A DNA stretch of 57,090 nt, counting the filler, from Circinaria calcarea (lineage: Eukaryota), in the NCBI GenBank assembly GCA_051942165.1. It is 5 parts of 5 records of this genome, joined end to end, with 100 filler letters (N's around TTAATTAATTAA, not from the genome) between each part and the next. Parts side by side here need not be neighbours in the genome. Positions count along the whole stretch, not along the records: positions 1 to 11,393 come from JAVECS010000688.1; 4 more parts are not named here. One strand, given 5' to 3'. Positions 1 to 45,790 of the stretch are shown piece by piece. The notes under the pieces are model-generated. The model had not been told where the DNA came from. It ran no database searches and saw only the letters and a program-made list of their open reading frames with translations. Made by a program: the position numbers and the translations under genes. Each line of letters opens with the position of its first letter. Position 1 is the stretch's first letter.

Positions 1-432
1 ACCGATCTCGTTCTTGTCGCGCCTGCAGTATGAGCAGAACGGATTAGGCTTGTCGATGCGTGCCTCGCAGTGAAGGCAGACCTAGGTTTTACAGTGAGAC
101 AAGAACTTTGATACAGTACGGAGACTTACCTGGGTTCCCTCGAATCTTCCTGGTTCTTCTATCCCCTCTAAGCTATCCCCTTCGTGCCGATCTCTGAAGA
201 GCAACAACGTGGAAGCAGTGGAAGGCTGCACCTTGCGGAAAAAGAACAAGGACGACGTGACGGGAGATTGGGGAATGGGATGCATGGCAATATGAACCGG
301 CGCGCACAGGGCGAAAGTATATATTCTTAATCGTATTTCGACCGGTAGGGTCATGAGACTGGGTCGGGTATTATCACCATCTTGACGAGTTGTGACAATG
401 TCCCAGAGTAGATCTCGAGCTCTAGACAGCAT
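1..432 (-). CDS. Hypothetical protein with F-box-like motif and a spliced CxxC-x10-CxxC zinc-ribbon-like exon; runs off the window start
   Basis: ATG at 432; LMTLPVEIRLRIYTFAL resembles the fungal F-box-like LxxLPxEIRxxIY motif; GTAAGT..TAG intron 129-82 joins in frame to VCLHCEARIDKPNPFCSYCRRDKNEIG. Confidence 0.55.
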
Positions 433-819
433 TCTTAACGGTTGCGGGCAGGTTTTCAATTGCTTCTAATAGGTATTCTCAGGAACGGCAGCTTAGTATT
501 AAAGGATTGGGCAATTCTGGTAAAAAGAAAAACGAGAAAGTGACAGTTGCCGAAGTCTAACGAGTGAAATAAGTGTTCAATAAACACGACAAAGTTCAGT
601 TGAAGCCTCGTCGAGGTCGTATCTCGAGTTAAGATAATACGATACTCTTCGCTTGGCGTAGCCTCGTATTTATTTTTGGTCACTTGTGGTTCGCGTCGGC
701 GAGCTTCAAAAACCGCGACTCAATTATAAATACGCGTATTCGACGATCTTCAGCGTAAGAGACTGAAAACGCATTTTCCCATAGTCTCAGCCTGAACCTC
801 ATCTCATATCTCAATCACA

Positions 820-1981
820 ATGCCTCGCAAGGTCCCCTCCATTCCAGACACCCCTCCACACGCCATAGATCCTTACGACATTCTCTCCCTCCCCGCCACC
901 GCTTCCGCCTCGGAAATCAAAACAGCCTACAAGAGACTCGCCCTTCTCCACCATCCTGGTAAAGTCATTCCCTATAATATCCGCATCGCCCCCCCCTAAA
1001 GAGACCATTTACCAACTCACCCATCCAGACAAAGCACCCCCCTCCCAACGTGACCAAGCCCACACCGACTTCCAAAACCTCGCTTTCGCCTACGCCATCC
1101 TCTCCGACGAGCGCCGGCGCAACCGCTACGATGCCACCGGCAACACGTCCGAATCCCTCGACATCGACGACTCCGACTTCGACTGGACATCCTTTTTCCG
1201 CACCCAATACGCCGACGTCGTGACGGGCGCCAAACTCGACGACTTCAAATCCGAGTACCAGAACAGCGAGGAAGAGACCCGGGACGTGTTGACCGCGTAT
1301 AGAAGCCACAAGGGCAAGATGAACGCGATATACTCGAGGGTGATGATGAGTAATCCCCTCGAAGACGAAGACCGCTTCCGAGCAATCATCGACGGGGCAA
1401 TCGCAAAGGGCGAAGTGGAAGCCTACGCCGCATATACCAACGAGTCGGCCAAGAGCAGAGGTGCACGCATGAAGAACGCCAGACGCGAAGGCGTCGAGGC
1501 GCAAGCCTACGCCAAAAAGCTCGGTGTTCACGACAAGCTCTTCGACACCGGTCCGAAAAAATCCAAAAAGGGAGGATCGGCAGCAGGGGAAGCCGATCTA
1601 GCGGCCTTGATACAGCAGAGAGGACAAGGCAGGACGGAAAGCTTCCTGGATAATCTGGAGAAGAAGTATTCCAAGGACACGAGGGGCAAGAAGCGCGCGG
1701 CTGCGGAGGAGCCGTCTGAAGAGGCCTTTGAGCGGATGGCGAAGAGGGGTAAGAAGCGGAAGGAGGTGGAGGCTGTGGAGGCTGTAGAGGTTGATGATGA
1801 GGGGGAGGAAGTGGTGAATCTGAGTGAAGAAGAGGAGGAAGAAGAGGAGCAAGAAGAAGGGGAGGAAGAGGAGGAAGAGGAGGAGGAAGAGGCGCCGAAG
1901 CAGAAGCCAAGGAGAACGCGTCAGACCAAAAAGGCACGGGACCGGCCGAAGAGAGCGAGGGCTCAAGGACGACACAACTAA
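820..1981 (+). CDS. DnaJ-domain protein (DNAJC9-like), 2 exons
   Basis: ATG 820: MPRKV..DPYDILSL..EIKTAYKRLALLHHP; intron 959-1028 restores the HPDK motif; FQNLAFAYAILSDERRRNRYD; EYQNSEEETRDVL; acidic/basic tail. Confidence 0.92.
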
Positions 1982-2357
1982 GGATCGCTTCCCTCCTGGC
2001 AAATCGAAGCTCCTACAATTATCTTTTTTCCTAAGCGTGGTGTTCAAGGAACTTTTACGGAGTGCAGTAGAAAGTGTCTCTGCACTTGTTGAGGAAGAAA
2101 ATCCCCAAAACAGAGTATATGCCTCCGGGGCATCTATCAATGCATTGAAATAAAAATCTAATTCATCTGAAGTGTAAGGTCACTTTTGCTGCGTTCCCAA
2201 AAAAAAAAACTCTTTCTGCACAAGATGTCCCGTTCATCAAAGCAGAGTTCCCCGTAATGATACCATCCACCCCCGTCTTCCTTTTTCCTTCTTTCAACAC
2301 CCATACAACGCCCGTTGGCCCCTTGCTCGCTAATTCATGGTTTGACACTCATCAAGC

Positions 2358-4729
2358 TTAATCGATCTTGGCATGTTCCAGGCCTCGAGTCGGCAGAAGG
2401 TTGTTGGCTAATCGGATATGCGGTACCCTGTTCTTCGAATTGGGCTTCTGTAACTTTTTGCGGGCGACCATGACCGGCACAGAGGACTTGGTGACCAGGT
2501 AGTTGGAGAATGAGCCGAGGAGCACCCTATCACGCGGTAACGTCAGCCCGACTCATGGAGGAAAAGACAGTGATGCAGTATATACCCTTTGAGAGCACTC
2601 CGGCCCCGCGAGCCGAGTACGACTAGAGTTGGCTCGAGACCATCAATCTAGGATTTGTGAATAAGCGCCAAAACAATCATGAGGCGGGGTACGTACTGCT
2701 CCTGTAAGCATATGCTTCGGGCTCTTGCAGTGTATCACCTCAACAGCTATGCGAACCTGTAACTTGGTTTTCCTGAGAAACTTGATGCATGTTTGTGAGA
2801 TGTCTTCAATGGCATGAAAGCGTTCTTGCCCCGCTTTCGACGTATCTCTAGAATCGGTCGAGCCTGCACGGCTATGTCTACCGCCGGGCAACAAGGCCGG
2901 GGTACTCAAGGGTGATGGGTTTGGAAGCGACGGAGTATTCTGACTTGCGTGTGTCAGTCTTTCTACCACGGCCGACGTTTCTTGCATTTCTTGATCGCCA
3001 TCCACTGTTGGAACACCTCCGTATATGCTGTCCGTATCGCCAGACTTGCCCGTGCCCACTTCTTCATCAACCGCGTAGATTGCTAAAAGGGTGTCGCCAT
3101 CACGCAGGACGGTACCGATGGTCCATTCCAAAGCATAAGCAGCTTCACCACTTAGGTCAGTCGCTACGAGGTAAGTCCTGAGCCGCCTTGATCCTTCTTC
3201 AGCCTCTTGCTGCATTTTGGAAAACTCTCCGCGAATGATAGTTCTAATGACCCTGTGCGGTATTGAGCTATCAATAGCCGACATATTGATACTCAGACGC
3301 TGAGCACGCCGAATATCACTAAGGTCCTCTGAGTCTGACGTTACTGGGCTGGGCACACTCGAGGCTCGCGAATTATAATTGGTGTTCGGATGCACGCCTG
3401 GCTTTCTCATTTGCAATCTCTCACCAGCGGGCCCGGTAAGTGTGACTGCGGGTTCCAGCAAGGATCTAACTTTGTACTTAGAAGAGATGCTAAGGCCTGT
3501 AAACCAATGTCAGTCGAGCTATATGCATCCGGTTGAGGTGGATATTCTATATACTTACGTTCCTCCTCTGCAGCCGCCAGCAAACTCTTCGCCATCCTTG
3601 GTCCGCCAGATCTCCCCATTCCTAGTTGACGGGTATTTAAAGCTCCGTCATTCTCACTTTCTTCGTTATCTGCATTTCCACTGCCAGCGCTCTTCTTCTT
3701 CCGACTTCTCCGTCGACCTCTAACACTTCCGGGGCCCCAAGCGTCGTCATCCGACGAGTGCTCTTCATCGCTACTCTCCACGGCACGCTCATCATCCTCG
3801 TAATAGTCTTTCTGAAGCCGTACTTCACCTGTAGGAGACAGTGTTTCCCCACTGCCCAGTCGAGCACGCGCAGACGCATTCTGGGTCGGCAAACTCGATA
3901 AATTTCCACCAGACTTTAAGAGATTCGCATCAGATAATCTTCTGTATGCATTATTCATGTCGATGACTTTACCGCCATCTGTAACGAACGTGCCAGGGGT
4001 AGGCATCAGATTGAATGAATTCTTGTTTAGCAAGCCCTTACCCGGGGACTGTGACCGATTTCCAAGTCGCGAGTGAGGCGATCTTGATTGGTGTCCGAGT
4101 ATTCCTGCAGTAGAGTTATGCCTTCCTCTGTCCTTTGCCCTTGGTAAGGGTTCAAGCTCCTGGCCTTGCATGATGGCCGCCATAGCATTCCGCTGTAGGG
4201 TTTGCTTCTTTCCCCCTAGAGTGACTCGCTTTAGCAAAGCCTGACCGGAGACTGGAGGTGACATATCGAATTGATAGCTTGACGGGATATTTCCGTCGCG
4301 GTTGCTCCCTGCACGAGGCCGCAATTTTGCGGGATGTGAAGCTGCATCGGACTGAGTACGGTGCACGCCTACAACCCCACCTGATCCAGTAGGTGATGTT
4401 GTAGTACTGTGGGTAGTCCGATGAGGTATAGGACTGGATGTGTCAAGCATGCTCCGTACTCCTGGCATCAATGGGGCGGTCCTCAAAGGAGAGGCCGTTG
4501 TACCGGAGCCTTGGCTACTAACGGATCCCTGCCTCGGGGTAGCTGTAGGACTTACGTCCAGCATACTACGTACTGGCGGACCTATATCTAGCATACTGCG
4601 AATCGGCGGAACTGGGCTCGAAGTTCGAGCGCTCTGATTGATCGACGGAGCCCGCACCTGGGTTGAACGTCCTTCCAGTATGTCCATGACCTCCCGCCGC
4701 TCCTCATCAAGGGCGGACTCCAGAGACAT
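2358..4729 (-). CDS. Universal stress protein (USP) domain protein with long disordered N-terminus, multi-exon
   Basis: ATG 4729 MSLESALDEERRE; YLVATDLSGEAAYALEWTIGTVLRDGDTL; VEVIHCKSPKH; last exons give LVVLGSRGRSALKG and VLLGSFSNYLVTKSSVPVMVARK; TAA at 2360-2358. Confidence 0.9.
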
Positions 4730-7700
4730 CTTGTCCGATTTTCCGGGCGCTTCTGGCACTTGGGCTGTTCAAAGAACCTGCGGATTTTCAACGGGCGGTG
4801 ATCAGATGCGCCGGGAAGATGTGATTCCCTCTACGAGAGTGACGACTGAAGGCGTACTGATAGGTTGGGAATGCTTGAACGCGCTCTATTGACACCAGCT
4901 ATCACCTCATTCGATGTTGTGCCTAATCGGTTGCTGTTATGCGGTTCCGCTGGAGAGTGGCGCAAATACGGGGTAAGGAGTCCTGCCCCGAAGTAGGAGT
5001 AAGTCATCCATTAATCAATGTTATCGTTGCAGACACGGTCTCGAAGTCGGGGCGAGCATGACAGTCATAGCTTTCGACCTGGGACCGAACCTAATTCGCC
5101 CTCGATCTACCGAGCAGGCAGGTTCTCCCGTGCACCAGTAGCGCGCTCGGAACGACGAGGTGGGGGCCTTACCCCACAGGTGCTGCAAGGCGAGCGACTA
5201 GGATGGATGATGGGAGAGAGTGGTCGTGATAACTGTTTGTGAAGCTGGTTGTGTTGTGGGGACCAAGAGTGCGTATTGGAGGGATCCGTAACGCGGGAAG
5301 GAGACATGCCGCGCAGTGAAAAAAGGAAAGTCGACATCATCCCGAACTCTAGCCCGCTGACGGAAAGACCCTTGCACGGACCATAGTCTAAGGTTTGCTG
5401 CCCTCAACCAACAACGTTAGAGGGGGCTTCACAGTTATTATGGGCATGTACACTAAGATCAGGGGGGCTGGTTTGTGCCAGAATTTCGTTATCGCACTCG
5501 AGGCCCTCTCCATTTTCGAAGCTCTCGGCCTTTATCATACTTGAACTTTAAACCTCAGAAATCAGCCGAGGGTCTTTCTAGAGAGAAGATACAAGAACAA
5601 CTTCCCACTTTCTCCGTATCAACGCTCAGATCCGGCGTTCGCAGTCCAACCAAGACTCAAATTTTCAGTGATTTATATCAATCGCCTCAGCTGTACCCCA
5701 AATTCAGTGGATATGACCATGACAAAGATGACGGTCATGTCATGCCAAAGGGTTCAACTGTGATTTAACCGTCACACCGACTTACCAACAAGCAGAGTGT
5801 GAGCACTCTGTAGCCATTGCTGTATTCGGGCCTCTTTCCTGGTGATCTTCACAAGTCTGGTCGGTCAGATTGAGTCACGTGACTCGAGGTTGAACCGCAA
5901 TTCGAAGCGGGAGTGGCATGATTAGGCTCTCGACCCTAGTACGTACTTACCAGCCAGGTCGAGCTGTTACTTTACTACTACTGTACATCATTGGTCCCGC
6001 TAAAGGTATGTATCAGTGGGATCAGCAGCGCGTCTGAGCGATTGTATTTACACTCATCCTTCTCTTCACCAACGCCTAACATTCGAATACCCAGGCGAGC
6101 CTTTACTCACCTATCGCCTGGTCCAAATGGTATCCTGAGATCGCCTTCGAGACGGGGTGGAAAGGGACGTCGGGGGCGGCACGTGTTATAGTTTGGTAAG
6201 AGCGGGTAAAGACGCGAGGGAAAGTAAGTCCAAGCCAGGGTCTATTCCAGGCCACATGGGTGTGCTTGGCAGCAGGGGCAGACTCGCCGATTCTGGCCAA
6301 GTACTATGGTAGACGGTAATCAGAAGATTGCAGCCACCGACCGACTTCACCATCGCGACTCTCTATTATGGACGAAGCTACCTCATGGTGGGCACAGTCT
6401 GACACCGAGGCTCAGTTTCGCTTATGATTACTGAAATGTATCGGTTCTATCCGCGTCTGTGTACTCGGTATGGGAAGCACGTCATTCGATAACCATGTGG
6501 TGTCCGGAGTAGGCATGGCTGAAGCGTGGAGCAGGAAGAGACTACGGGAGTGAAAAGCTAGCGAAGGTTGTACCTATCAGTACCTCCCAATTAGGTAACT
6601 TCCCGGCTTTTCCGCTTCCTTTCTTGTTTCAGGCCCCTGGATTCAGCCTGGATTTCTGCAGCAAGCATGCAGCGCGGCATTATATGCAGCAAACTATCGA
6701 TTAATTCCCGTGCAGGTACTTCGTATTCAACCTCTTCAAAAGGGGGTGATGGTTTGCAAGTATCTAATCTACCTTTGATCAAGGCTCCTCTTGGTCGCTT
6801 ACGCCAAGCGCGCGGTGCGGGGAAATGAAAGGTAAAGTAATCCAACAGACCTCAGTATCAATCGCCGATCCGGCTGCTCGCACCTTGGACGGGCCAAAGT
6901 CCGCCTTGGAGTTTGGGAAGTCGGATCGTTATGGCTGGAAGGAGAAGGATGGAGAGAGGAGGAGGAGAAGGGCAGAGCTGCGGGGAAACTCAAAAATGCA
7001 CCAGCCTTGAGCTACAACGCCAAGCTGGTACGCCTGCCGCAGGTCCTACTTAGGCTATCCACCTGTTTGGCGGCTATACCCCATACTCCGATCATAGTAG
7101 TATTACGGCACGCCTCTTTCCTCTGGGCAGAATCTGGCCTTTGCATCATCTCATCAGGGCCGGATCATGACTCCCAACGATACGGGTAACAGCTGAGACT
7201 GGATTGCTGAATGCGTCGGAGCTAGGCAATCACGCCGTCTAACGCGTGTCATTCTCGTGGCTTAGTCTTCCTTTCCTGCCTCTTCCTTCTTTCCCTTTCA
7301 AGTGTCCGCTCGCTTCCGCCGGGCCTTTCCCAACGCCATGGCACTATTACATATACGAGAGTCGGTGGCTGAAGAGGGAGCTTTGGATTGGGACTCGTGC
7401 CCTGGATCTGGGAAACACGCGGACCTCGAAGAGCATGTGTCGATCGAGACCGCTTCAGCGTTCCCCAAGTGTTGTTCTACAAGATCTTTACGGCTCTTAT
7501 GCCTTCAGCCTTGCTCTACATGGCTCTGTCATGGTGTAGCTCCGGTTTGCACATGTTCCACCTCCTGCCATCGCCGACGATACCCAACGGGATCTCCACG
7601 GTCTTACTATGGCTTCTAATGGTAGGAACAAACTTTCTCCAATTCTTCTCAGTCATAGTTTCCTTCAAACCATGGTCGTTGGACCACGTTAGTGCACCGC

Positions 7701-8207
7701 CTTCCCTGCCAATAACTCTTGCAGGACGCATTACAACATTCCTGCACCACATCAAGTTCTCTTCGTGGTAACCCCTGTCATGTTTTTTCTACTTTTAACT
7801 CGTCAACTGTTTTTAGCAATTGATCACACGACCTCCTGTGAGATTGTTGGGAAGCGAGTGGTTTGATGGTACTTCCGCCCACTATAGATACAAGTCCCGG
7901 GGTAATGTGTGTCAGGAGCTTGAACATCATTGGGCCCGCAGTGCAAAGATGTCATTACTATTAGGCTAGTCATCAGCCTAGAATTCTGGCTTCCTCAGGC
8001 AGCTGCAATTCTACCCGATACATCTCGATGTAGACAACTCCCTACCATGGTTGATTTGGTTCTTGTGGGATACACTTTATCGAATAAAGGATCTAGGCAT
8101 GGATTCAATGCGGGGAACAGCTTTGGCTACTATTCGAGGACACCATCAGTCCAGCAAAACAGAAAGCTGAAGTAATTCGAACTATTACTCCACGAGGGGA
8201 AACTGTC

Positions 8208-8215
8208 TATATAAA
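8208..8215 (+). promoter_or_regulatory. TATA box of the repeat-precursor gene
   Basis: TATATAAA about 160 nt upstream of ATG 8377, followed by a CT-rich tract typical of fungal promoters. Confidence 0.6.
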
Positions 8216-8376
8216 CCGCCTGCTTTCCCCATTTCTCGTTCTTCCCATCGTGCCTTCTGTCCGACTCCCTCACGTTCTTCGATACTCTACTGTTCTCTCA
8301 AGGACGCTATTCCTAATCGTCATATCATTTACCACCACCTGTATTTACCCATCTTAACCAACCAATTACCGCAAAG

Positions 8377-9795
8377 ATGCGTTTCACCAAGGTTGCTGCC
8401 GTTGCGGCTATTATGTCCATGAGCGTCTCTGCTCTCCCGGCTGCTGCTCCTAACGCCAATGCCGATGTGGCCGAGGGTCCCGTTTTAGCATTGACCGAGC
8501 GTAATCTTGCGCAACTCAACGGCAGATCACCCACAGGCAAAGGGAGCCACAAAAGCCACAAAAGCCGCAAAAGCAAAAGCAGCAAAAGTAGTGGCCGTCA
8601 CCATTACTACCGTCGTATTCGGTCTTTGAGTCCTACTGGGAAAGCTTTGAGACGTTCCGTCTGGAAGTACTACAAGGTTCGCAGTCCCGCTGCCGAACCA
8701 ACTGGATACGATACCGTCAGCTACAAGAGCGGCAAGAGCGGCAAGAGTGGAAAGAGTGGAAAGAGTGGAAAGAGTGGAAAGAGTGGGCAGAGTGGAAAGA
8801 GTGGAAAGAGTGGGCAGAGTGGAAAGAGTGGAAAGAGCGGCAAGCACTATGTGCGAAGAGGTTTGGCCACCCGAGATGCTGAGGCTGAAGCTGAACCAAC
8901 TGGATACGACACCATCAGCCACAAGAGCTACAAGAGCGACAAGAGTGACAAGAGTAACAAGAGTGACAACAGCCACAAGAGCAACAAGAGTGGCAATAGC
9001 AGCAAGAGTGGCAATAGCAGCAAGAGTGGCAAGAGCAACAAGAGTGGCAAGAGCAACAAGAGTGGCAAGCACTATGTACGACGAGGTTTGGCCACCCGAG
9101 ATGCTAAGGCTGAAGCTGAACCAACTGGATATGATACCATCAGTCACAAGAGCGGCAAGAGTGGCAAGAGCGACAAGAGCAACAAGAGCAACAAGAGTAA
9201 CAAGAGTGACAAGAGCCATAAGAGCAACAGTAGCAACAAGAGTGGCAATAGCAGCAAGAGTGGTAAGAGCAACAAGAGTGGCAAGAGTAACAAGAGTGGC
9301 AAGCACTATGTACGACGAAGTTTGGCCACCCGAGATTCTAAGGCTGAAGCTGAACCAACTGGATATGACACCATCAGTCACAAGAGCGGCAAGAGCGGCA
9401 AGAGCGACAAGAGTGACAAGAGCCATAAGAGCAACAGTAGCAACAATAGCCACAAGAGCAACAAGAGCAACAATAGTGGCAAGCACTATGTACGACGAAG
9501 TTTGGCCACCCGAGATGCTGAAGCTGAACCTAGCGGAAGCAACAATGTACTCCGATGGCTCGGCTTGGCTCCACGCGACGCTGAGGCCGAAGCTACTGTG
9601 ACATATCCCGACTACGGCCATGGAGCCGGAAACGGTTCCCAGAAGAGCGGGAAGAGTGGGAAGAGCGGGAAGTCTCAAGGGAGCGGGAAATCTCATGGGT
9701 CTGGGAAGTCTCATGGATCTGGGAAGTCTGGGAAGTCTCATGGGTCTGGGAAGTCTGGGAAGTCTGGGAAATATGCCAAGAGATGGGCTGCTTAG
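8377..9795 (+). CDS. Secreted Kex2-processed repeat protein (KEP-type precursor) releasing Lys/Ser-rich peptides
   Basis: Intronless 472-aa ORF; signal-peptide-like MRFTKVAAVAAIMSMSVSA; repeated linker KHYV-RR-(G/S)LATR-DAEAEAEP-TGYDT; cores of (K-S-X)n. Confidence 0.88.
   Translation: MRFTKVAAVAAIMSMSVSALPAAAPNANADVAEGPVLALTERNLAQLNGRSPTGKGSHKSHKSRKSKSSKSSGRHHYYRRIRSLSPTGKALRRSVWKYYKVRSPAAEPTGYDTVSYKSGKSGKSGKSGKSGKSGKSGQSGKSGKSGQSGKSGKSGKHYVRRGLATRDAEAEAEPTGYDTISHKSYKSDKSDKSNKSDNSHKSNKSGNSSKSGNSSKSGKSNKSGKSNKSGKHYVRRGLATRDAKAEAEPTGYDTISHKSGKSGKSDKSNKSNKSNKSDKSHKSNSSNKSGNSSKSGKSNKSGKSNKSGKHYVRRSLATRDSKAEAEPTGYDTISHKSGKSGKSDKSDKSHKSNSSNNSHKSNKSNNSGKHYVRRSLATRDAEAEPSGSNNVLRWLGLAPRDAEAEATVTYPDYGHGAGNGSQKSGKSGKSGKSQGSGKSHGSGKSHGSGKSGKSHGSGKSGKSGKYAKRWAA
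8695..9525 (+). repeat. Four nested tandem units (198, 225, 234, 174 bp) built from 9-bp AAGAGYNNN sub-repeats
   Basis: Unit starts (GAACC..) at 8695, 8893, 9118, 9352; next unit start at 9526; all lengths are multiples of 3. Confidence 0.92.
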
Positions 9796-10440
9796 ATGGC
9801 GGATTGGAGTGGAGGAGATGATAGTCGGGGATGCAACTAAGGAAAATTGATATGAGTCCTTTTTTACTTGAAAAAGGCTTTTTTTATCCACTGATATTTG
9901 TTAGTATCTTTTTGATTTTGAAAAAATACTGTCAAGGGACCCCTTTTTTGAAATTGAAACTTGCAGTTCGCTCGGGGCTTTTTTCCTTCTACTGGCTGGG
10001 TCAGACTGTCCTTACCAACTCCCTCGCATGAGCTTTAGCTAGCCGCTTTTCCATAGTCTAATCCTTCCTTCCCCAATGGGCCTCTCTCCCAATCCATTCA
10101 TCGACGTAGTATTATTACCCGCCTCTGCTTTTTTTTTTTTTGGAACATCTTCACTACCCGGCTCCTAGGCACTTTGGTTGGGGATCTTCGTCAGGGACAA
10201 ATTTACAATGTTTACCATATGCCCCGAGTTAACCTCGCGACTAGACTACAAGTATACACGCCGAAAAAGTACCACTTGGCCGGATCTTAGACTCTTTCCC
10301 CCCCCCCCCTTGTCTTTTTCCCTGTCTTTTCCCCTTCGAGAAACACTTTTCAAATCATGGAATTCCGGTGATCTGATCCTCTATAGATAATTGTGTCTCC
10401 ACACAAAACCTAAACCAGACCCCTGCTCCCGATTCCCAAC

Positions 10441-10541
10441 TCACCTTCACCTTCACCTTCACCTTCACCTTCACCTTCACCTTCACCTTCACCTTCACCT
10501 TCACCTTCACCTTCACCTTCACCTTCACCTTCACCTTCACC
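10441..10541. repeat. Perfect (TCACCT)16 hexanucleotide microsatellite plus a partial copy
   Basis: Read directly from the sequence. Confidence 0.97.
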
Positions 10542-11393
10542 CACGAAGCCTCTTCGTTACACCTTTCCGGGGGGACACTGGGCCATAGACATAACCCTAA
10601 CTAAAATGGGGGTATTGGAAATCTTTTTTAGCAAATAGCTGCTATAGCTATATTTGTAGTCGTAGCTGTGAAAAATTCCGGGCGGGTAGGTTGGTTAGTT
10701 AACTCCCTCACTTCACTCCACGCATATTTCCTAGAAATGGGAGGGAGGGAGTTATGTATTTTATCTACCCCTCTGCTTTTCTGTCCTTTTTTCCTTTTCG
10801 CCCTCTGTCCCTTTTTCTTCAATTTTCTAATTTTTATTTTCTCTTGGAAGAAGAGCCTCGCCTACGTCGCTACGGGGGTACGGTGGCATAGATATAGGTA
10901 ATTGCAAGTTCGAATCGGAGTTTTTTTTTTTGGGCAAATGCAAAAACTGGATCGATTAGCAAAAACAGGAGTTTATTTATTTTGTTAGTTTTAACCATGG
11001 GCCGAAAGTTGCATGTACGTGGTATGTATATGAGTATTCCGGGGCCGGGGGGAAGGGGGGAAGGAAACGGCCCGTTCTACGGTACCATAAGTCATTCGCG
11101 TTTTGATCGTTTCGTTTCGTTTCGTTTTTTTTTTGGGATTCGGTCATTCGGAACCCGGATTGGGGGCCGGTGGGTACACTTACCCAAGTCCTTACATGAG
11201 AGTTCCGCGGTCCCCCAACAACCAATAAAAAAAAAAGGGGCAGGGGCGATTGAAATAGTTGGCCAAATTTGCCGAGATCCCCCACTTCCTTTTCCTTTTC
11301 CTTCCCCCGAATCCTTGTTTTGGTTGCGGGCTGGAAAAAGCCGGGAATAAAAAAAAACAAATTAAAACTTTGGGAACAAGAAAATCTCATCCC

Positions 11394-11493
11394 NNNNNNN
11401 NNNNNNNNNNNNNNNNNNNNNNNNNNNNNNNNNNNNNTTAATTAATTAANNNNNNNNNNNNNNNNNNNNNNNNNNNNNNNNNNNNNNNNNNNN
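11394..11493. other. Artificial contig spacer
   Basis: 44 N + TTAATTAATTAA (stops in all frames) + 44 N. Confidence 0.98.
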
Positions 11494-22831: not shown

Positions 22832-22931
22832 NNNNNNNNNNNNNNNNNNNNNNNNNNNNNNNNNNNNNNNNNNNNTTAATTAATTAANNNNNNNNNNNNN
22901 NNNNNNNNNNNNNNNNNNNNNNNNNNNNNNN
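22832..22931. other. Artificial contig spacer
   Basis: 44 N + TTAATTAATTAA + 44 N. Confidence 0.98.
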
Positions 22932-34261: not shown

Positions 34262-34361
34262 NNNNNNNNNNNNNNNNNNNNNNNNNNNNNNNNNNNNNNN
34301 NNNNNTTAATTAATTAANNNNNNNNNNNNNNNNNNNNNNNNNNNNNNNNNNNNNNNNNNNN
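34262..34361. other. Artificial contig spacer
   Basis: 44 N + TTAATTAATTAA + 44 N. Confidence 0.98.
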
Positions 34362-44789: not shown

Positions 44790-45690
<901 letters not shown>

Positions 45691-45790
45691 NNNNNNNNNN
45701 NNNNNNNNNNNNNNNNNNNNNNNNNNNNNNNNNNTTAATTAATTAANNNNNNNNNNNNNNNNNNNNNNNNNNNNNNNNNNNNNNNNNNNN
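45691..45790. other. Artificial contig spacer
   Basis: 44 N + TTAATTAATTAA + 44 N. Confidence 0.98.

What the first reader, a model, noticed from the sequence alone, without database searches (positions are those of the whole stretch)
8701..9780. Released peptides resemble diatom silaffins/cingulins: possible mineral-binding or adhesive role
Seen: Ser at every third position, KxxK spacing (unit 1 has 13 consecutive (K/Q)SG triplets), Tyr/His at both peptide ends, and linkers RRGL/RRSL. Known: diatom silaffins and cingulins are Lys/Ser/Gly-rich KxxK proteins cut at RxL sites (e.g. RRIL), and modified silaffin peptides precipitate silica. Inference: a convergent fungal polycationic or phosphoserine peptide system for binding silica, minerals, polyanions or surfaces. 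Alternatives are Tyr-crosslinked wall or adhesive material, Gly-X-X polyproline-II ice binding, or antimicrobial activity. The similarity is compositional only; homology is not claimed.
Basis: inference. Interest (0 to 1): 0.7.

Follow-up and report, generated by a model that had tools for sequence, protein, structure and literature searches.

The report
Lichen-fungus lysine-serine peptide precursor
This fungal gene makes a secreted protein that is most likely cut into six long, positively charged lysine/serine peptides with tyrosine at their ends; it belongs to a small family with no described match in the searches made, and its likeness to diatom silica-forming proteins is one of composition, not ancestry.

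Summary
Observation confirmed. The finding lies in an intronless 472-aa ORF (8377-9795, +): signal-peptide-like start, six Lys/Ser-rich units. Ser fills the middle position of 70 of 70 triplets, Lys 56, Gly 36; unit 1 has 13 (K/Q)SG triplets. A divergent second copy (probably an allele) and seven relatives from other sources were found; the only named one is from the lichen fungus Loekoesia. Close relatives occur in biocrust RNA libraries. The family keeps Ser period 3, about 25-45% Lys, C-terminal Tyr (26 of 26 peptides) and a two-step linker, RR then aliphatic-x-x-R, followed by in-register XA/XP dipeptides (29 of 46 such sites, against 1 of 63 other Arg sites). That is fungal Kex2/Ste13 processing, so this is a KEP. 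The 'RxL' is Leu in only 11 of 18 linkers, aliphatic in 18 of 18: better read as Kex2's P4 residue. Gly period 3 is not conserved, so ice-binding/collagen is unlikely. Best guess: Tyr-ended polycationic peptides that bind anionic wall, matrix or mineral surfaces (about 0.4). Silica formation proper about 0.1. The proposed scrambled-control silica test cannot discriminate.

The parts
8208..8215 (+). TATA-like box (TATATAAA) upstream of the gene
   Evidence: read from the sequence; two of three RNA-library assemblies begin a few tens of bases downstream of it (one study, weak)
8377..9795 (+). Intronless CDS, 472-aa secreted Kex2/Ste13-type precursor (P0001)
   Evidence: 493-aa second copy on contig C1028; relatives
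8377..8433 (+). Predicted signal peptide (residues 1-19)
   Evidence: hydrophobic core, best 11-residue hydropathy 2.03, matched in 7 of 7 other full-length N-termini; no signal-peptide predictor was available
8491..8505 (+). Conserved pro-region motif LTxRN
   Evidence: present in 9 of 9 sequences examined
8533..8610 (+). Unit 0: predicted 26-aa K/S/H peptide ending HHYY, net +8
   Evidence: prediction
8611..8682 (+). Most conserved segment of the family (RRIRS...WKYYKVR)
   Evidence: found in 9 of 9 sequences; 10-11 synonymous against 7 non-synonymous codon changes to distant relatives
8701..8853 (+). Unit 1: 51 aa, 13 (K/Q)SG triplets, net +11, no sequon
8854..8898 (+). Linker 1: RR, L-A-T-R, four XA/XP dipeptides
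8899..9078 (+). Unit 2: 60 aa, net +10, 6 sequons
9079..9123 (+). Linker 2
9124..9312 (+). Unit 3: 63 aa, net +13, 8 sequons
9313..9357 (+). Linker 3 (first dipeptide is DS here, DA in the second copy)
9358..9492 (+). Unit 4: 45 aa, net about +6, 4 sequons
   Evidence: net charge worked out from the fragment
9493..9594 (+). Linker 4 with the family-wide spacer motif WL(G/D)LxxR (9541-9576) and dipeptides
   Evidence: motif in 8 of 8 sequences long enough to hold it
9595..9777 (+). Unit 5: 61 aa, Gly/His-richer, Ser mostly by TCT codons, net +10

Best explanation
A secreted fungal KEP (Kex2-processed repeat protein). Shown from sequence: signal-peptide-like start, six K/S-rich units, conserved linkers. 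Inferred with high confidence (about 0.9): Kex2 cuts at RR/KR and at the aliphatic-x-x-R site, Kex1 trims the basic residues, Ste13 removes XA/XP dipeptides, releasing disordered 26-63-residue peptides of net charge +6 to +13. Inferred with modest confidence (about 0.4): the peptides are structural. The Lys/Ser core binds polyanions (acidic wall or matrix polysaccharide, partner-cell exopolysaccharide, polyphosphate, mineral surfaces) or becomes a glyco- or phospho-serine spacer, and the terminal Tyr residues act as stickers or oxidative cross-link points, giving a coat or cement on hyphae of a lichen thallus.
For: In-register XA/XP runs follow 29 of 46 aliphatic/aromatic-x-x-R sites, against 1 of 63 other Arg sites and 0 of 46 when read one residue later; this holds in every lineage although the dipeptides differ. 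A Kex2-type P-domain is in the genome. Tyr lies within the last 5 residues of 26 of 26 distinct predicted peptides and within the first 9 of 19 of 26, while the cores are almost Tyr-free (7 Tyr in 809 core residues against 76 in 580 end residues over the 29 rows printed). Composition and Ser period are kept while length and exact sequence drift, as expected of a material rather than a receptor ligand. One relative (L013) carries YYPPPP stretches. Model is disordered, mean pLDDT 41. Precedent: Ustilago Rep1, a Kex2-cut precursor whose peptides coat hyphae (PMC8528282). Tyrosinase-family matches exist in the genome (8 matches on 4 contigs).
Against: No direct evidence of location, modification or activity. 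Ste13 signatures are usually linked to pheromone-like peptides, and Rep1 lacks them (PMC6339444). The family looks narrow (5 real clusters among 1.84 billion representatives), odd for a general lichen matrix component. Units 2-4 carry 18 sequons, so the mature form here may be glycosylated rather than a bare polycation; distant relatives have only 0-3. Tyrosinases are common in fungi and none lies next to the gene.
Confidence: 0.4

Rival explanations
1. Defence: the released polycationic, His-containing peptides, or the conserved basic spacer segments, inhibit competing microbes on the thallus or crust.
For: Net charge +5 to +16 for most predicted peptides; no Cys, no anchor; kep knockouts in Coprinopsis had no axenic phenotype and the authors suggest a role in biotic interaction (PMC9769878).
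Against: Cores have almost no hydrophobic residues, so they cannot be amphipathic; Asp and sequons erode charge in units 2-4; the invariant Ser is not explained.
Confidence: 0.2
2. Desiccation or stress protectant: extracellular disordered hydrophilic peptides that protect membranes or bind metals through His during wet-dry cycles (working like dehydrins; likeness recalled, not tested).
For: Disordered, very hydrophilic K/S/G/H/N/D make-up; close relatives in biocrust libraries.
Against: Does not explain terminal Tyr or precise processing; no Pfam match to a stress-protein family.
Confidence: 0.13
3. Silaffin-like biomineralisation: phospho-Ser and modified-Lys peptides deposit or pattern silica.
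For: K/S/G/Y composition, KxxK spacing and RR-ended repeats parallel Sil1p; L013 repeats a Ser-Lys-Lys-Ser-Gly word; Ser is invariant.
Against: Linker explained by Kex2/Ste13; KxxK not above chance in L013 (16 of 36, p=0.39); no long acidic N-terminal domain; none of the literature searches returned a fungal silaffin-type system.
Confidence: 0.1
4. Signalling KEP: the active product is a short conserved spacer peptide (such as the WKYYKV segment) or the trimmed units, sensed by a receptor as in alpha-pheromones.
For: Canonical Kex2/Ste13 architecture; the WKY[YF]K[VI]R segment is the best-conserved part; a weak Atlas hit to alpha-factor precursors (score 0.75, lead only).
Against: Units are long, low-complexity and unequal; the conserved segment occurs once, and its inner dibasic site is KK-P in the Loekoesia protein.
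Confidence: 0.1
5. Gly-X-X polyproline-II bundle (ice-binding) or collagen-like triple helix.
For: Unit 1 is 13 perfect Gly triplets; Pfam Collagen E=5e-07 on residues 119-155.
Against: Gly third in only 14 of 44 triplets of units 2-4; Gly lag-3 not significant in 6 of 6 distant relatives tested; NCBIfam collagen-like match scores 26.7 against a cut-off of 325.
Confidence: 0.03

Closest known systems
Fungal KEX2-processed repeat proteins (KEPs; PMC6339444, PMC7329392, PMC9769878)
   Same: Signal peptide, repeats between KR/RR sites, Ste13 XA/XP dipeptides, cleavage after single Arg also reported
   Different: Released units are long (26-63 aa), low-complexity, unequal and strongly basic; double-site linker; two single-copy conserved spacer motifs
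Ustilago maydis Rep1 repellents
   Same: Kex2-cut precursor whose peptides form a hyphal surface layer (PMC8528282 passage)
   Different: Rep1 peptides are amphipathic, amyloid-forming, with no Ste13 signature; these are hydrophilic polycations
Diatom silaffin Sil1p and cingulins (PMC4557024)
   Same: Secreted precursor, basic K/S/G repeats, KXXK, RR-ended units, Tyr-rich patches
   Different: No homology found; no acidic N-terminal domain; linker continues through a second Arg and dipeptides; modifications and link to silica unknown
Dikaritin RiPP precursors
   Same: KEP-like layout, Tyr in the repeats
   Different: No DUF3328 gene on either contig; no short identical core; Ste13 signature present
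Lys/Tyr/Ser-rich bioadhesives and wall proteins (mussel foot proteins, tubeworm cement, plant extensins; recalled, not tested)
   Same: Lys, Ser, Gly, Tyr, His make-up; Tyr as possible cross-link; YYPPPP in one relative
   Different: Unrelated sequences; here Tyr is confined to peptide ends and peptides come from a Kex2 polyprotein

Membership tests
KEP | N-terminal ER signal peptide | tested here: met
   By hydropathy only: basic start, hydrophobic core, conserved in 8 of 8 full N-termini; SignalP not available
KEP | At least 3 repeats of 8-100 aa between KR/RR/KK/RK sites (definition in PMC7329392 section 13) | tested here: met
   Four TGYDT...KHYV repeats of 45-63 aa bounded by RR
KEP | Kex2-type protease in the genome | tested here: met
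   PF01483 match over cut-off on contig C484
KEP | Cleavage shown in vivo | not testable with these tools
   Needs peptidomics
alpha-pheromone precursor | XA/XP dipeptides after the Kex2 site | tested here: met
   29 of 46 sites
alpha-pheromone precursor | Short, near-identical repeated peptides | tested here: not met
   Units 26-63 aa, unequal, low complexity; no pheromone Pfam match
dikaritin RiPP precursor | DUF3328/UstYa gene close by | tested here: inconclusive
   None of 71 genome matches lies on C688 or C1028, but the gene is 1.6 kb from the end of C688
dikaritin RiPP precursor | Short, highly repeated core peptide | tested here: not met
silaffin/cingulin | Basic repetitive Lys/Ser units with KXXK spacing | tested here: met
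   45 of 58 Lys have Lys at +3 in P0001; significant in 7 of 8 family members, not in L013
silaffin/cingulin | RXL motif closing each repeat | tested here: inconclusive
   4 of 4 in this copy, 11 of 18 across the family; aliphatic in 18 of 18 and explained by Kex2 P4
silaffin/cingulin | Acidic N-terminal domain as in Sil1p (residues 20-107) | tested here: not met
   Pro-region is about 30 near-neutral residues, then basic (Sil1p description)
silaffin/cingulin | Sequence homology to diatom proteins | tested here: not met
   No diatom protein named among hits; most hits are unnamed but share the fungal-type linkers
silaffin/cingulin | Phospho-Ser, methylated or polyamine-modified Lys; bound to biosilica | not testable with these tools
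   Needs mass spectrometry and element mapping
collagen / Gly-X-X ice-binding protein | Gly at every third residue throughout the repeats | tested here: not met
   36 of 70 triplets; not conserved in relatives

The most novel reading that the evidence does not exclude
A lichen-fungal peptide cement that converged on silaffin and bioadhesive chemistry: Kex2/Ste13-released Lys/Ser peptides, phosphorylated or Lys-modified in the secretory pathway and cross-linked through terminal Tyr, that glue the thallus to mineral grains or condense silica or other minerals in biological soil crusts.
Probability: 0.15. Interest if true: 0.8.

Novelty: new variant of a known kind. Interest (0 to 1): 0.45.

Why it matters
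KEPs are common in fungi but almost all described products are short pheromones, toxins or cyclic-peptide cores. This family uses pheromone-style processing to release long, polycationic, Tyr-ended peptides, and its only named member is from a lichen fungus. How lichens attach to rock and soil and what proteins hold their matrix together is little known (own knowledge); this gives named peptides with predicted ends that can be looked for directly in thalli. If they carry phospho-Ser or modified Lys, fungi would have a secretory modification route that is so far known from diatoms and animal adhesives.

Tried and rejected
Whole-protein homology search gave one real hit and three low-complexity ones; P0010 and P0011 were dropped as chance matches (a non-fungal-looking tandem repeat and an octopus protein), and P0009 (frameshifted after the conserved block) and P0007 (short form of P0012) were left out of the counts; P0006 and L011 were left out. 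Three nested rows were removed to get 26 distinct peptides; unit 4 of P0001 and the last units of P0002 and L013 were not captured by that script. Pfam and NCBIfam gave only collagen-type low-complexity matches; PDB sequence search nothing under E 0.6; ESM Atlas top scores 0.80 and 0.79, below the useful range; AlphaFold2 model pLDDT 41, so no fold search was run. No relatives in viral or prokaryotic contigs. Fam20C and silicon-transporter family searches in the own genome found nothing, but no control genome passed the cut-off and the assembly is fragmented, so these say nothing. Motif searches in the supplements of the two KEP surveys found nothing; the listed columns of the large table in PMC7329392 are accessions and labels, so this does not show absence from those surveys. 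Look-ups of earlier findings returned nothing. A general two-haplotype assembly was tested and not seen at two other loci. Habitat of unnamed relatives was not established.

Full report
The gene. The finding lies inside one intronless ORF, 8377-9795 on the + strand, 472 aa. The window is five contigs joined by N linkers; only 1-11393 belongs to this locus (G000 contig C688). Neighbours upstream are a DNAJC9-like gene and a Usp-domain gene, with no biosynthetic gene beside it. The protein has a basic-then-hydrophobic start, no Cys, no transmembrane or C-terminal hydrophobic stretch and no confident fold (pLDDT 41).

The observation. Ser in the repeats is coded by AGY in units 1-4 and mostly TCT in unit 5; relative L013 uses mostly TCN. 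Two unconnected codon sets at the same position argue for selection on Ser (inference).

Second copy. Contig C1028 holds a 493-aa version, 89.7% identical over about 6 kb including gaps, about 98% in non-repetitive coding parts. It ends inside the shared Usp gene on one side and matches contig C2421 at 95% to the contig end on the other, joining the locus to a halogenase that lacks its 5' part. The simplest reading is a second allele with a deletion; a local duplication is not excluded. Two other loci were single-copy. A search with the conserved part found only these two copies.

Family. Searches with the non-repetitive N-terminal part found P0002, four metagenome loci of two kinds (L010-L012, like P0002; L013; 4 of 45 candidate stretches), five real clusters among 7 hits in 1.84 billion representatives and P0014. 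One is named: KAL8707395.1 from Loekoesia sp., Teloschistaceae, Lecanoromycetes. Close relatives (mostly 90-95% alike) are in three biocrust RNA libraries of one study and one biocrust DNA run; RNA contigs cover the ORF and little upstream while the DNA contig runs on to 7600. This fits transcription but contigs from one study do not prove it. That the window's organism is itself a lichen fungus is an inference from these relatives. Nothing was found in viral or prokaryotic contigs.

What the family keeps. LTxRN in 9 of 9 sequences, a YxxI...KY[YF]K[VI]RS block in 9 of 9, a WL(G/D)LxxR spacer in 8 of 8 long enough. Ser period 3 is significant in 8 of 8 members, Lys period 3 in 7 of 8, Gly period 3 only in the two copies of this genome. 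Unit number, length and third residues vary freely. N-glycosylation sequons number 19 and 21 here but 0-3 in the others.

Processing. After each unit comes RR, then x-aliphatic-x-x-R (second Arg in 15 of 18 linkers), then XA/XP dipeptides. Two or more dipeptides follow 29 of 46 aliphatic/aromatic-x-x-R sites, 1 of 63 other Arg sites, and 0 of 46 sites read one residue late. Kex2 prefers an aliphatic P4 and an LxxR motif is used to find its sites (PMC8528282, passages); acidic or small residues are favoured after the cut (PMC2515848, passages); cleavage after single Arg and Ste13 trimming were seen for other KEPs (PMC9769878, passages); the Kex2/Kex1/Ste13 route is described in PMC6339444 (passages). 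The precursor meets the KEP definition of PMC7329392 (abstract, section 13 and part 1 of section 6 read). The predicted products here are six peptides of 26-63 aa, net +6 to +13. The 'RxL' is therefore most simply the P4 residue of the second site: Leu in 11 of 18, aliphatic in 18 of 18.

Silaffin comparison. PMC4557024 (passages and part 1 of section 7) describes Sil1p as a signal peptide, an acidic domain and basic repeats ending RRIL/RRNL, active in vivo through phospho-Ser and modified Lys. The compositional parallel is real; the acidic domain, homology and any link to silica are missing.

Function. Tyr ends every predicted peptide (26 of 26) and starts most (19 of 26) while the cores nearly lack it. 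Reactive ends on a charged, flexible, length-variable core suit a binding or cross-linked material better than a receptor ligand (inference). Rep1 is a precedent for surface-coating KEP peptides (search listing of PMC3133707). Against this: Ste13 signatures are linked to pheromone-like peptides, the family seems narrow, and nothing here shows location or modification. I put the structural reading at 0.4, defence 0.2, stress protection 0.13, silica formation 0.1, signalling 0.1, Gly-X-X 0.03.

Novelty. Searches of the held library returned no description of such a family; the lichen RiPP survey PMC12048977 (passages) and the silicification review PMC11733937 (passages) do not mention one in the passages seen. 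The library lacks most subscription papers, and the KEP surveys' supplements may list members by accession only. Verdict: a real, conserved, apparently undescribed KEP family with unusual products; a new variant of a known kind, interest 0.45.

Noticed in passing
window 11394-11493, 22832-22931, 34262-34361, 45691-45790: The window is five separate contigs of about 11.3 kb joined by N runs around TTAATTAATTAA; genes across these joins are not neighbours.
   Followed up: yes
L009 (G000 C1028) 1-2900 and L014 (G000 C2421): A flavin-dependent halogenase gene occurs twice at about 95% DNA identity; the C1028 copy lacks its 5' part and is joined directly to the peptide-precursor locus just past a microsatellite.
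   Followed up: partly
window 10441-10541: Perfect (TCACCT) microsatellite, about 17 copies, much shorter in the second copy and close to the point where the two copies diverge.
   Followed up: partly
G000, 36 contigs: 71 UstYa/DUF3328 matches (exon-level); contig C812 carries both UstYa and tyrosinase matches, a candidate dikaritin-type cluster.
   Followed up: no
L013 1-1017: Relative whose units combine YYPPPP(P) stretches with Ser-Lys-Lys-Ser-Gly repeats, recalling both plant extensins and silaffin words (recalled likeness).
   Followed up: partly
window 869-1981 (+) and 2643-4768 (-): DNAJC9-like gene and Usp-domain gene, the ordinary upstream neighbours.
   Followed up: yes
window 44790-45746 (+): Exons that look like a sterol 14-alpha-demethylase-type P450 (recalled likeness), cut by the contig end.
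   Followed up: no
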